A stretch of 12,523 bases of DNA from a virus (taxonomy: Duplodnaviria; Heunggongvirae; Uroviricota; Caudoviricetes): IMG/VR virus record IMGVR_UViG_2645727991_000008; one strand, 5' to 3'. Made by a program: the position numbers. Below are positions 9,001-12,000 of the stretch, one piece after another (the first letter of the stretch is position 1; every line of letters starts with the position of its first letter).

Positions 9001-12000
9001 GAAACAGATATTGGAGAACCGGGGAATGAATGATGTCTGAGTCTTATATATCAGAACTCCTTCGCTGTCGCTGGGGGCTCCTGTGCTTATGTCGTTTCCC
9101 CGATTCGGTTTTGAACGATTACCGAATGTTGAAGAATTATGCCAAAATATAGAAAGGATTTACTGCATGAATACCCAATATTTACAGTATGTTCGTGAGC
9201 AACTTATGGCAGCTACTGCTGACTTGAACGGAGCAACGAAAGGCCAGCTCGAAGCCTGGCAGGAGCATGCACAATTTGATACTGGTACATACAAACGAAA
9301 GAAGCCGCGCATTCTGGATGTGGTAACTGGCAAGATGATTACGCTGGATAATACGCCGACTTCCGGTAAGCAGTCGTACGCAAAAGGTTCATCCATTGCT
9401 TTGGTCAGCCCGGTTGAATTCTCAACCTCTTCATGGCGCCGCGCGGTTTTGTCTCTCGATGAACATCAGAAAGCATGGTTGCTTTGGTGTTACAGCGAAA
9501 GCGTTCGATGGGGGCATCAGGTCACCATAACGCAATGGGCATGGAGCGAGTTTAAAGATTTGTTAAGTAACAGAAAAATTGCAGGTAAGACACTGGATCG
9601 CCTGAAGACGTTAATCTGGCTGGCTGCACAGGATGTGAAGAGCGAACTTGCAGGGCGTGAGGCCTATGAATACCAGACACTGGCATCATTGGTGGGAGTG
9701 ACAACAAAAAACTGGTCCGAGACATTTACTGAACGCTGGGTTGCAATGAAGCACATTTTTCTACAGCTTGATAGTGATGCTTTATTGCTTGTGACGAGAA
9801 CACGTTCAAAACAAAAGGCAGCATTTTTACAGCAAAATATTGCAAAACTGGATTAAAAGCCATATACTTCATGCAAATTTGGTATGTTGTAAAAAATGTA
9901 TAAACCCGCTGCCGAGTGGGTTTTTTTTATGCCCTGAGTTGTACTTGTACGGTAAACATGCTGGCTGCTATGTAATAGAGTTTTTTTAGCCTGTAACCTC
10001 TTGACGGCATTGAATTGCTTTTGTTATGAGTTGTAAGTCAATGTTATCATCTTGTATTGGGGTGGTTATGAAGGATGGTGCGCTGCTCAGGAGTTCTTCA
10101 CTTTTTATTGCCTACATGGGATGCCTTGGATGGGGGAGTGCTTATTTCTATGGATGGGGTACTTCTTTTTACTACGGCTTCCCATGGTGGATTGTAGGTG
10201 CAGGTGTTGATGATGTTGCCAGAAGTTTATTTTTTGCAGTTATCGTCATTGCTATATTTCTTATCGGTTGGGGTATTGGTGTTGTATTCTTTTTCGCAGT
10301 GAAAAGAAAACATTCTATGCAAGAGCTAAATGTATTTCGCCTTTATTTTGCTGTGGAATTATTGTTTGTGCCGGCAATTATTGAGTTTTCTATATTGAGA
10401 CAGAAGATTCAGGTACCTCTTTTGCTACTGTCAGCAGCGATTGCGCTGGCGGTTACAATTTCGATAAGATCTTATGGGCGATTTTTATCGGTATCATGCT
10501 TCTATGATAAGCCATTTATAAAAAAACATTTTTTTGAGATTGTGATGATTGCTTTTGTGGCATATTTTTGGCTTTTTTCATTTCTGACAGGATATTACAA
10601 ACCACAGTTTAAGAAAGAATATGAAATGATTAATTATAATGATGGTTGGTATTATGTTCTTGCTCGTTATGATAATTGTCTGGTTTTGTCTACTTCTTTC
10701 AATGCAGGTAGTAAAAGGTTTGTCATTTATCAATCAGCACAAGATAAGAATCTTCAGGTTGATATTGTAAGGACCAGAATTTAATTGGCTGCATAAATAA
10801 TATTTTAAGTTGCAAGTTGGCTATTCGTAGGAATAGAACCTTAGGCATGCTGAATGCGTTTTCTGAACATTGTTTTATAAACTGTGTCTGCTTGCTGTTG
10901 TGATCCTGCTTTTAGTGATGGTGATGATGGATTTCACCAGCAGGATAATGTTGGTACTGACTGATGGCGCTCTGGTCTGCGGCATTGTGGTATTGCTGTG
11001 GCCGATGATGAAAGAACAGAATGAATAATTCTTGACTTTTTTGTTTACTGTTTATTAAAAAATCAACCGCATGGTGAATCCTCCTTGGAGGGGCTAAATG
11101 ATCGAGTTTTAAGGGCACGTAGCGAGTTCTGTTTGATCATTGCAGAACTTAGCGGGAGGCGCCATGCGTACATCACTAGTGTTATTCCTTTTATCATTTT
11201 CCTTGTGAGTTCTGGCTGCGCATTGCGCAGCCTTTTTTTTATGACCTGCCACTGGCAGATGGTCATCCTGTGATTTGATTCCGCTTCCGGCTTTTTAACT
11301 CTGTTCCTCTACACGGGAGAAATTCGATGTCGATTAAACATTACGATGTTATCAGGGCGGCGTCGCCGTCAGACCTTGCGGAAAAGCTGACACACAAACT
11401 GAAAGAGGGCTGGCAGCCATACGGCGGACCGGTTGCCATTACGCCGTACACACTGATGCAGGCGGTGGCTATTGAAGGAGAGCCACAGGTCGGCCCTTCA
11501 TCTGAGCCGGATTGGTACTACGTCATCGTACTGGCCGGGCAGTCCAATGCCATGGCTTACGGTGAAGGGCTTCCGCTGCCGGATTCATACGATGCTCCGG
11601 ATCCGCGCATTAAACAGCTGGCGCGCCGCAGTACAGTGACGCCGGGCGGGGCTGCCTGCAGATATAACGATATTATTCCGGCTGACCACTGTCTGCATGA
11701 TGTGCAGGATATGAGTACGCTGAATCATCCGAGGGCTGACCTGAGCAAAGGGCAGTACGGCTGTGTCGGCCAGGGTTTACATATTGCCAAAAAACTGCTC
11801 CCGTATATCCCGAATAACGCGGGGATCCTGCTGGTACCATGCTGTCGTGGTGGTTCGGCATTTACCCAGGGCGCGGAGGGGACATTCAGCGAGTCCACGG
11901 GGGCCAGTCAGGATTCGGCACGCTGGGGGGTGGCAAGCCGTTATATCAGGATCTGATTTCCCGCACAAAAGCGGCATTGCAGAAAAATCCCAAAAACGTT

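What the first reader, a model, noticed from the sequence alone, without database searches (positions are those of the whole stretch)
9957..10784. AT-rich 5-TM membrane protein occupying the Q-proximal site (stx position in Stx phages)
Immediately downstream of the Q-like gene and terminator, where Stx phages carry stxAB and other prophages carry conversion genes, there is a 239-252 aa polytopic membrane protein with a Trp/Tyr/Gly-rich first helix and a soluble C-terminal domain. Its GC content is very low (about 28% in a sampled line). It has a plausible sigma70-like promoter of its own (TTGACG at about 10001) and a GGGG RBS, so it may be expressed from the lysogen as well as on induction. 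Candidate roles include superinfection exclusion (blocking DNA injection), a holin-like or envelope-modifying function, or a novel membrane effector. I do not recognise the family.
Basis: partly seen in the sequence, partly recalled or inferred. Interest (0 to 1): 0.65.

Follow-up and report, generated by a model that had tools for sequence, protein, structure and literature searches.

The report
Uncharacterised prophage membrane protein at stx site
This is a real, conserved gene for a five-helix inner-membrane protein of unknown function. It sits where Shiga-toxin phages carry their toxin genes, and its family (Pfam PF27470, 'TfpB') recurs next to virulence genes in several gut and mucosal pathogens.

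Summary
Downstream of a Q82-type antiterminator gene (9167-9856), its late promoter (9840-9868) and the terminator tR' (9902-9931) lies an intact AT-rich gene.

- **Start and size:** comparison with homologues puts the start at ATG 10068, behind the GGGGTGG ribosome-binding site. The product is 238 aa.
- **Architecture:** five transmembrane helices, an aromatic/glycine-rich first helix and a small C-terminal beta domain.
- **Identity:** it equals ECs_0816 of E. coli O157 Sakai prophage Sp3 and is 99.6% identical to CPT_434_68 of phage 434. It belongs to Pfam PF27470 'TfpB' / PHROG 1521, which has no characterised member.
- **Selection and fold:** it is under purifying selection (dN/dS 0.13-0.18). 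It has no fold relative in the PDB or BFVD.
- **What it does not match:** no holin, lysis, exclusion or defence model.
- **Position:** a 68%-identical copy sits between the same flanks that bracket stx2AB in Stx2a phages.
- **Other locations:** the Shigella virulence plasmid, next to eltAB on pig ETEC plasmids, between the LT-II and pertussis-like toxin operons, beside LpxR, and in Salmonella as STM1630.

STM1630 is macrophage-induced and has in-vivo phenotypes. My best reading is a cargo ('moron') envelope protein serving host fitness, not lysis. Its biochemical action remains unknown.

The parts
9167..9856 (+). Q82-type late antiterminator gene (annotated start; the open frame begins at 9083)
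   Evidence: Pfam PF06323 at E = 1.7e-91 and PHROG 304. Annotated as 'bacteriophage antitermination protein Q' in identical prophages and as 'Q82-like' in phage 434.
9840..9868 (+). Candidate late promoter pR' (TTGCAA, 17 nt, TATACT), overlapping the end of Q
   Evidence: Consensus scan. The position between Q and the terminator fits lambdoid late-operon anatomy; this assignment is inferred.
9902..9931 (+). Intrinsic terminator tR' (9-bp stem, 4-nt loop, T-run)
   Evidence: Annotated as a terminator in phage 434. Homology between Q82-type and lambda-Q-type prophages resumes exactly here, at 9903.
10001..10030 (+). Possible weak promoter for the gene itself (TTGACG, 18 nt, TATGAG with an upstream TG)
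   Evidence: Visible in the sequence. TTGAC and TTTGTnATG are conserved in the ETEC-plasmid and iro-island copies. It was not picked up by the consensus scan, and site counts do not exceed chance. Unproven.
10059..10065 (+). Ribosome-binding site GGGGTGG
   Evidence: Visible in the sequence, 2 nt before ATG 10068, the start that homologues conserve.
10068..10784 (+). Gene for a 238-aa inner-membrane protein of family PF27470 'TfpB' / PHROG 1521. It equals ECs_0816 (Sakai Sp3) and is 99.6% identical to CPT_434_68 (phage 434). RefSeq calls the start at 10041; the longest open frame starts at 10026.
   Evidence: Models. Selection analysis.
10870..11028 (+). DUF3927 'TciB-like' small membrane protein gene. 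It follows the target gene in all E. coli prophage copies examined.
   Evidence: Pfam PF13064 at E = 3.4e-14 and PHROG 1470. Synteny.
11085..11273 (+). 62-aa hydrophobic ORF, with a strong terminator-like hairpin inside its 3' end (11214-11240)
   Evidence: Annotated as 'putative membrane protein' plus a terminator in phage 434. RefSeq does not call it. Status uncertain.
11327..12523 (+). DUF1737-SASA sialate O-acetylesterase gene (NanS-p type). This is the gene that follows stx in Stx phages. Here it is frameshifted.
   Evidence: Pfam DUF1737 and SASA. One-base deletion at 11931/11932 relative to an intact copy.
7730..8692 (-). LpxR lipid A 3'-O-deacylase gene. It is part of a 2.3-kb LpxR-YlcG-Q82 block (about 7590-9902) that replaces most of a lambda-type Q gene.
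   Evidence: Pfam PF09982 at E = 4.5e-40. Block boundaries. The LpxR-to-target block is intact in 618 complete E. coli genomes.

Best explanation
The feature is a genuine 238-aa gene (10068-10784). It is a cargo ('moron') gene in the first position of a lambdoid late operon.

**Shown**
- It lies directly after Q, pR' and tR'.
- The identical protein follows at least two unrelated Q families in E. coli. Diverged copies follow a third Q family.
- One diverged copy sits exactly where Stx2a phages carry stx2AB.
- The protein has five transmembrane helices plus a small beta domain.
- It is under purifying selection. The first 57 residues (AY.YGWG...YYG.PWW...ARSL) are the most constrained.
- No polar or charged residue is conserved across the whole family apart from a mostly conserved Arg, which argues against an enzyme.

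**Inferred**
- Transcription comes mainly from pR' by Q-modified polymerase reading through tR'. A weak promoter of its own at about 10001 may add to this.
- The topology is N-terminus in, C-terminus out. That places the conserved end of helix 1, loop 1 and the beta domain together on the periplasmic face.

**Most likely function (inferred, low certainty)**
It is a non-enzymatic envelope protein that binds a conserved periplasmic or membrane partner. It benefits the bacterial host in animals, as a lysogenic-conversion factor. It does not serve lysis or phage exclusion. This rests on three things: its Salmonella homologue STM1630, its recurrence on virulence plasmids and islands, and its repeated linkage to lipid A remodelling genes (LpxR, PmrD).
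For: **Identity and position**
-.
- The start codon is supported.

**Family**
- PHROG 1521 at E = 2e-154.
- PF27470 'TfpB' is recorded for the window's exact 247-aa product and for all homologues.
- The family is small: 71 representatives among 1.84 billion proteins.

**Abundance and mobility**
- Present in 692 of 5426 complete E. coli genomes, median two copies each.
- The identical protein follows PF06323-type or PF03589-type Q. Diverged copies follow PF06530-type Q.
- Stx-site equivalence.

**Structure**
- The second model has pLDDT 76.5 and pTM 0.70, with five helices and five strands.
- Loop charges favour N-in/C-out.

**Selection**
- dN/dS is 0.13-0.18. pN is 0.06-0.11 in residues 1-57 against 0.22-0.38 in the middle, except 0.215 vs 0.417 in the Salmonella pair.

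**Host-side role**
- The gene occurs on 106 Shigella plasmids in PLSDB, including the virulence plasmids pCP301 and pWR100.
- It lies next to eltAB on pig ETEC plasmids.
- It lies between the LT-II and pertussis-like toxin operons.
- It is adjacent to LpxR in Citrobacter rodentium, and to LpxR plus PmrD in a Stx2-phage-like prophage.
- It occurs as single chromosomal genes outside prophages in Pasteurellaceae and Neisseriaceae.
- Salmonella STM1630 is the homologue. This is shown by size, neighbours and the published deletion primer, which encodes NSSMLLAYLGGLGWG.
- STM1630 is H-NS bound and is expressed in SPI-2-inducing medium and in macrophages. Mutants were attenuated in calves and chickens. 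Deletion raised intramacrophage replication in strain 4/74 (PMC6785131 S1 Text).
- STM1630 groups with SPI-2 and PhoP-type genes in expression (PMC2639726).
Against: - No experiment addresses the E. coli or phage 434 copy.
- tR' lies between pR' and the gene, so it may be silent in a lysogen.
- The candidate promoter has a poor -10 element, and promoter-like sites are no more frequent than chance.
- In EPEC, Ler activates LpxR (21-35x) and Q (2x), but the gene after Q is not listed (PMC3891560).
- The window's LpxR adjacency arose from insertion of an LpxR-Q82 cassette next to a gene already present. It is therefore not independent evidence of functional coupling.
- Adjacency to virulence genes could simply reflect shared AT-rich insertion hot spots.
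- The Salmonella phenotypes are modest and inconsistent. The hypermotility seen in a screen (PMC4219756) was re-examined in a follow-up study whose outcome I did not read, and the ST313 lineage has silenced the gene.
- Topology rests on a charge count, not on a dedicated predictor or an experiment.
Confidence: 0.45

Rival explanations
1. Superinfection exclusion or another anti-phage membrane protein. Made by the prophage, it would block DNA entry or adsorption of incoming phages, as HK97 gp15, P22 SieA or T4 Imm do.
For: - It is a prophage-borne polytopic inner-membrane protein in known cargo hot spots: after Q and, in Citrobacter freundii, after the tail-fibre genes.
- The strongly conserved helix 1 could dock onto a conserved host membrane protein used for DNA entry.
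- The same window carries a candidate defence pair next to cI.
Against: - No match in PADLOC. All four PHROG matches have unknown function.
- The gene lies behind tR', whereas exclusion genes are normally expressed in the lysogen.
- Intact copies persist on the Shigella virulence plasmid, on ETEC plasmids, in the Salmonella steB-sseJ islet and as lone chromosomal genes in Pasteurellaceae and Neisseriaceae.
- The Salmonella copy is induced in macrophages and affects animal colonisation.
Confidence: 0.2
2. An accessory factor for periplasmic toxins or vesicle release. Possibly together with lipid A deacylation by LpxR, it would help release toxins assembled in the periplasm (LT, LT-II, pertussis-like toxin, CDT), for example through outer-membrane vesicles.
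For: - Family members lie 866 bp from eltAB on ETEC plasmids.
- They lie between eltIIAB and pltBA in an LT-II prophage.
- They lie beside cdtCBA in Glaesserella parasuis.
- They lie near an STb-like gene and dsbA in Klebsiella.
- They lie beside LpxR in three layouts.
- From background knowledge: LT and CDT leave cells on vesicles, and lipid A deacylation promotes vesiculation in Salmonella.
Against: - Only 19 of 70 eltAB plasmids in PLSDB carry the linked gene.
- No Stx phage in the phage collection has a homologue.
- Most copies, including the window, the Shigella plasmid, the Salmonella copy and most Pasteurellaceae copies, have no adjacent toxin.
- Toxins and this gene share the same insertion hot spot, which explains the adjacency without any functional link.
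Confidence: 0.1
3. A lysis-related protein: a holin, antiholin or lysis-timing regulator made late with the lysis genes.
For: It is a membrane protein in the late operon upstream of the lysis cassette. Glycine-rich helices are also found in pore-formers.
Against: - No holin or lysis family matches in Pfam or PHROGs.
- At 238 aa with five helices and a folded beta domain, it is unlike known holins.
- The same prophages carry a complete class II holin, SAR endolysin and spanin set 3-5 kb downstream.
- Many copies are nowhere near lysis genes.
Confidence: 0.05

Closest known systems
Salmonella Typhimurium STM1630 (SL1344_1560), a 'putative membrane protein' between steB and sseJ
   Same: Same family: 46% identity over the full 238 aa, with the same N-terminal motif and the same architecture. 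It is also AT-rich and horizontally acquired, and is bound by H-NS.
   Different: STM1630 is chromosomal, not in a prophage, and has its own mapped promoter far upstream. It is expressed in SPI-2 conditions and macrophages and has reported in-vivo phenotypes. Nothing equivalent is known for the window copy, and the upstream DNA is unrelated.
Lambdoid late-operon cargo at the Q-proximal site (stxAB in Stx phages; LT-II and pertussis-like toxin genes in type II ETEC prophages)
   Same: Same site and the same expected control, Q-dependent read-through of tR'. The same downstream neighbour, nanS-p. Low G+C relative to the phage backbone.
   Different: The product is an integral membrane protein, not a secreted toxin. 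It does not co-occur with stx in the phage collection. It does co-occur with LT-II and the pertussis-like toxin in one prophage type.
Prophage morons for envelope proteins (Lom, Bor/Iss, LpxR, Cor, HK97 gp15)
   Same: A single small gene in a hot spot of a lambdoid prophage, with a composition unlike the backbone, predicted to act in the cell envelope. LpxR and a Bor-like gene sit in the same prophage type.
   Different: No sequence or fold similarity to any of them. It is an inner-membrane protein with five helices, not an outer-membrane barrel or a lipoprotein. An own promoter and terminator are not demonstrated.
Pfam PF27470 'TfpB'
   Same: The window's exact product and all homologues carry this precomputed Pfam assignment.
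   Different: The model is not in the local Pfam copy, so I could not score it or read its description. From memory, the name may come from the tfpB ORF in the Moraxella pilin inversion region, whose function is also unknown. No Moraxella member appeared in my searches, so that link is untested.

Membership tests
Pfam PF27470 (TfpB) / PHROG 1521 | Significant full-length match to the family profile | tested here: met
   PHROG 1521 at E = 2.1e-154, covering profile positions 1-222 of 222. PF27470 is listed for the window's exact 247-aa product and for 100+ homologues. The Pfam model itself is absent from the local library, so no hit.
Pfam PF27470 (TfpB) / PHROG 1521 | Shared architecture: about 238 aa, N-terminal AY.YGWG...YYG.PWW motif, five helices, C-terminal beta domain | tested here: met
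   Alignments of 24-60 members. Models.
Lambdoid 'moron' (autonomous cargo unit) | Present or absent between conserved flanking genes in related phages, with a composition unlike the backbone | tested here: met
   36% G+C against 45% for the window. The same flanks hold stx2AB in Stx2a phages. The gene follows three different Q families.
Lambdoid 'moron' (autonomous cargo unit) | Own promoter upstream and own terminator downstream | tested here: inconclusive
   TTGACG at 10001 with a weak -10. TTGAC is conserved in two diverged copies, but site counts are at chance level. The first terminator-like site downstream is at 11214, after two more small ORFs.
Holins / lysis proteins | Match to a holin or lysis family; small size; position next to the endolysin gene | tested here: not met
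   No Pfam or PHROG holin or lysis hit. The protein is 238 aa with a folded beta domain. A separate class II holin, endolysin and spanins lie downstream in identical prophages.
Superinfection exclusion / anti-phage defence proteins | Sequence match to a known exclusion or defence family | tested here: not met
   No PADLOC family at E <= 1. All PHROG hits have unknown function. No BFVD fold match.
Superinfection exclusion / anti-phage defence proteins | Protects the cell against incoming phage | not testable with these tools
   Needs plaque and injection assays.

The most novel reading that the evidence does not exclude
PF27470 proteins may be a so far unrecognised, pathogen-associated class of inner-membrane envelope factors. 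Their invariant periplasm-facing aromatic motif and beta domain would engage a conserved envelope component such as LPS/lipid A traffic, peptidoglycan or a membrane complex. They would act together with lipid A remodelling (LpxR, PmrD) to change surface properties, vesiculation or the release of periplasmic toxins during infection. That would explain why the gene travels with LT, LT-II/pertussis-like toxin, CDT, the Shigella virulence plasmid and the Salmonella SPI-2 regulon.
Probability: 0.12. Interest if true: 0.8.

Novelty: new member of a known kind. Interest (0 to 1): 0.45.

Why it matters
The exact protein is among the commonest prophage cargo genes in E. coli. It occurs in 692 of 5426 complete genomes, often twice, and in classic phage 434. 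Diverged copies persist intact on the Shigella virulence plasmid and on pig ETEC toxin plasmids. They also persist in LT-II toxin prophages, in Citrobacter rodentium and in Salmonella, where mutants affect animal colonisation.

No member has a known biochemical function or a recognisable fold. Defining it would fill a gap in how lambdoid prophages alter their hosts. It would also show whether the site that carries Shiga toxin otherwise carries an envelope-remodelling factor. C. rodentium offers a natural mouse model for testing this.

Tried and rejected
**Family and structure searches that found nothing informative**
- Local Pfam, NCBIfam and PADLOC gave no meaningful hit for the protein.
- A profile search of PDB sequences found nothing.
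- Foldseek against BFVD had a best E-value of 0.08. The afdb50 library was unavailable.
- Rfam found nothing in the window. The leader RNA fold is unremarkable (z = -0.76).

**Literature searches**
- Searches for PF27470, WP_001302581, TfpB, TciB and CP0168 gave nothing relevant or only noise.
- Jobling 2016 on LT-II prophages is not held.

**Origin of the name 'TfpB'**
- I looked for a Moraxella member to explain the Pfam name. None appeared among the representatives, the genome loci or the cluster names.

**Readings I rejected**
- The 252-aa and 247-aa readings of the ORF, in favour of the 238-aa start.
- A lipoprotein or signal-peptide reading of 'YMGC', because the Cys is not conserved.
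- A CII-binding site at 10021-10034 (annotated in phage 434), because the second half-site is not conserved in diverged copies.
- An obligatory link to LT, because only 19 of 70 eltAB plasmids carry the gene.
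Full report
**1. What is in the window**

The window is the early-right and late-start region of a lambdoid prophage. In order it holds:
- cI, cro, cII, O, P and ren;
- ninB to ninG and a Ser/Thr phosphatase;
- LpxR on the minus strand (7730-8692);
- YlcG, a Q antiterminator, the target gene and a DUF3927 gene;
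- a DUF1737-SASA esterase of the NanS-p type.

The DNA around the target is 100% identical to prophages in complete E. coli genomes. The layout matches their RefSeq annotation and that of phage 434.

In E. coli O157:H7 Sakai the same gene is ECs_0816, 'membrane protein', in prophage Sp3. It follows lpxR (ECs_0814) and Q (ECs_0815).

**2. Checking the observation**

An open frame runs 10026-10784. Three ATGs could start it: 10026, 10041 (used by RefSeq and by the 434 annotators) and 10068.

Almost all full-length homologues are 237-238 aa and begin at the position matching 10068. In the diverged ETEC-plasmid and iro-island copies the upstream ATGs run straight into stop codons, while the GGGGTGG-type ribosome site and the start are kept. 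The gene is therefore 10068-10784, giving 238 aa.

- The gene before it is a Q82-type antiterminator (PF06323, E = 1.7e-91).
- A promoter-like site (TTGCAA-17-TATACT) lies at 9840-9868, and a terminator hairpin with a T-run at 9902-9931.
- The ORF is 36% G+C (30% at third codon positions) against 45% for the window. Local lines fall to 25-30%.
- Hydropathy and two AlphaFold models agree on five long helices and a C-terminal five-stranded beta domain at residues 184-235. The second model used 55 sequences and reached pLDDT 76.5 and pTM 0.70.
- Helix 1 is 37% Trp/Tyr/Phe and 20% Gly.

The gene is real. Eight copies from different genetic contexts are all intact. dN/dS against the window copy is 0.13-0.18, with synonymous sites near saturation.

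**3. The family**

The local Pfam, NCBIfam and PADLOC libraries give no meaningful hit. PHROG 1521, of unknown function, matches at E = 2e-154. The precomputed Pfam assignment for the window's exact product and for all homologues is PF27470, named 'TfpB'. No source gives any member a functional name.

The family is small. A profile search of 1.84 billion representative proteins found 71.

Members occur in Enterobacterales, Pasteurellaceae and Neisseriaceae, which are largely animal-associated groups.

Conservation is very uneven:
- The first 57 residues (SS.F.AY...GWGSAYFYGWG.S.YYGFPWW...DD.ARSLF) are nearly invariant within Enterobacterales and still recognisable in the most distant members.
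- Helices 2-4 are conserved only in hydrophobicity.
- Helix 5 and the start of the beta domain (YKPQFKKEYEMI...WYYVLARY..LVLS) are conserved again.

Across the whole family the near-invariant residues are A15, A25, Y26, G31, G37, P39, G175 and Y195. There is no conserved acidic, His, Ser or Cys residue, which argues against catalysis.

Loop charges (K+R of 3.9 and 3.2 in loops 2 and 4, against 1.0 and 0.7 in loops 1 and 3) favour N-in/C-out. That puts the conserved end of helix 1, loop 1 and the beta domain on the periplasmic side. This topology is an inference.

**4. Fold**

- Foldseek against viral predicted structures gives nothing.
- A profile search of PDB sequences gives nothing.

**5. 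Position and mobility**

The identical 247-aa product is extremely common: it is indexed in 19,053 blocks of the assembly collection. It follows either a Q82-type Q (PF06323, with LpxR upstream) or a lambda-type Q (PF03589, without LpxR).

Between these two prophage types, homology stops at window 7589 and resumes at 9903, the foot of tR'. So the LpxR-YlcG-Q82 block is a replacement cassette, and the target gene lies in the shared late segment.

Diverged copies follow a third Q family (PF06530) in Yersinia and in another E. coli prophage type.

In that E. coli type the order is Q, DNA methylase, two tRNA genes, the target homologue (68% identity), LpxR (minus strand), sometimes PmrD (minus strand), then NanS-p. 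Searching this locus against the phage collection hits Stx2a-converting phages. Two matching pieces flank stx2A-stx2B: methylase/tRNA on the left and yjhS/nanS-p on the right.

No phage in the collection apart from 434 and 2B8 has a homologue, so stx and this gene appear to be alternative cargo.

**6. Other contexts**

| Copy | Identity to window | Context |
|---|---|---|
| P0054 type (CP0168 in pCP301) | 57% | 106 Shigella plasmids; in pCP301 between virA and spa40, among IS elements |
| P0044 | 59% | Pig ETEC pEnt plasmids, 866 bp from eltAB and divergent; STb 3 kb away |
| P0029 | 58% | LT-II prophage: Q, eltIIA, eltIIB, an ORF, a duplicated Q 3' end with pR'/tR', tRNAs, the homologue, pltB, pltA, holin, endolysin |
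| P0023 | 66% | C. rodentium chromosome, divergent from and adjacent to LpxR, next to adhC and an MCP gene |
| Salmonella copy | 46% | At the same chromosomal site, between sseJ and steB |
| P0045 | 57% | Beside iroB/iroC and a Bor-like gene, with a tR'-like remnant upstream |
| P0034 | 60% | After tail-fibre genes in a C. freundii prophage |
| P0061 | 54% | Klebsiella, near an AraC regulator, DsbA and an STb-like gene |

In Pasteurellaceae the gene is a lone chromosomal gene among housekeeping genes. Two exceptions: in Glaesserella parasuis it is convergent with cdtCBA, and in a Mesocricetibacter genome it lies next to an HlyB/HlyD exporter.

Only 19 of 70 eltAB plasmids in PLSDB carry the linked gene. 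It is therefore not needed for LT.

**7. Experimental data on a homologue**

The Salmonella copy is STM1630 (717 bp, 'putative membrane protein', between steB and sseJ). The published deletion primer encodes NSSMLLAYLGGLGWG, which matches the homologue found here.

According to PMC6785131, S1 Text:
- its function is unknown;
- it carries an H-NS binding site;
- it is expressed in SPI-2-inducing medium and inside macrophages in strain 4/74;
- it is silenced by two promoter SNPs in all ST313 strains tested;
- signature-tagged mutants were attenuated in calves and chickens;
- deletion had no effect on growth in LB (tested in D23580);
- deletion increased intramacrophage fold-replication in 4/74.

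It also groups with SPI-2 and PhoP-type genes (ugtL, pagD, pagK, lpxO) in a regulator-mutant transcriptome (PMC2639726). A deletion was hypermotile in a screen (PMC4219756).

For the E. coli side, the neighbouring lpxR is activated by Ler in EHEC and EPEC (21-35x). The gene after Q is not listed in that study (PMC3891560).

**8. Expression**

- *Shown by sequence:* the gene lies 137 nt beyond tR' in the late operon.
- *Inferred from lambdoid biology:* Q-modified polymerase starting at pR' reads through tR', giving strong expression after induction, as for stx.
The scan finds no more promoter-like sites than in shuffled sequence.
- *In its favour:* nucleotide homology with the ETEC copy begins at 9997. 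TTGAC and TTTGTnATG are conserved in the ETEC and iro-island copies at about the same level as the coding sequence. This fits a promoter that travels with the gene, but shared ancestry would also explain it.
- The Salmonella promoter lies much further upstream in unrelated DNA.

**9. Verdict**

The positional interpretation is confirmed.

The protein is not a holin, a lysis protein, a known exclusion or defence protein, or a recognisable enzyme. It is a member of an uncharacterised family whose members move between prophage cargo sites, virulence plasmids and chromosomal islets in animal-associated bacteria.

| Reading | Probability |
|---|---|
| Non-enzymatic envelope protein serving host fitness (lysogenic conversion) | about 0.45 |
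| Superinfection exclusion | about 0.2 |
| Toxin or vesicle release accessory | about 0.1 |
| Lysis-related | about 0.05 |

The gene is catalogued but not understood. I rate it as a new member of a known kind (lambdoid cargo membrane protein) with moderate interest.

Noticed in passing
window 702-1454 (-) and 1451-2008 (-): Two overlapping genes next to the repressor gene, in the position where lambda carries rexAB, give weak matches to the two proteins of the PADLOC candidate defence system PDC-M24 (B: E = 6e-10; A: E = 5e-4). Pfam was not scanned for them, and NCBIfam gave nothing meaningful.
   Followed up: no
window 11327-12523, break at 11931/11932: The NanS-p type sialate O-acetylesterase gene has a one-base deletion relative to an intact 616-aa copy, so it is frameshifted after about 200 codons. 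The same gene is annotated as frameshifted in O26 strains.
   Followed up: partly
window about 7519-9902: A short N-terminal remnant of a lambda-type Q gene (about 7519-7589) is followed by a 2.3-kb block: LpxR (minus strand), an AT-rich spacer, YlcG and Q82-type Q. Relative to lambda-Q-type prophages this block replaces Q and pR'. Homology resumes at tR' (9903). The LpxR-to-target block is intact in 618 complete E. coli genomes.
   Followed up: partly
loci L028-L031, L034 (ETEC plasmids); L063-L065 (LT-II prophage); L015 (G. parasuis): Family members lie directly beside toxin operons: eltAB, eltIIAB plus a pertussis-like pltBA, and cdtCBA. Only 19 of 70 eltAB plasmids have the linkage, so it is not obligatory. 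Whether it exceeds what shared insertion hot spots would give was not tested.
   Followed up: partly
locus L033 (pCP301 CP0168) and 106 Shigella plasmids: An intact 238-aa family member (57% identity) is found on 106 Shigella plasmids in PLSDB. In pCP301 it lies between virA and spa40, surrounded by IS elements, and is annotated only as a hypothetical protein.
   Followed up: partly
loci L032 (C. rodentium), L041-L043 (E. coli prophage), window: LpxR is a neighbour of the family in three different layouts: divergent and adjacent, convergent and adjacent (with PmrD in L042), and separated by YlcG-Q. The window's layout arose by cassette insertion, so it is not independent evidence of coupling.
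   Followed up: partly
locus L063, about 760-1000 and 3340-3560: In the LT-II prophage the 3' end of Q with its promoter and terminator region is duplicated. One copy precedes eltIIAB. The other precedes the tRNAs, the family member and pltBA. This suggests two Q-responsive late promoters.
   Followed up: no
window 10870-11028 and 11085-11273: Two further small hydrophobic ORFs follow the target: a DUF3927 'TciB-like' gene and a 62-aa ORF with a strong terminator-like hairpin at 11214-11240. With the target they form a run of three membrane-protein genes before nanS-p. DUF3927 accompanies the target in all E. coli prophage copies seen.
   Followed up: no
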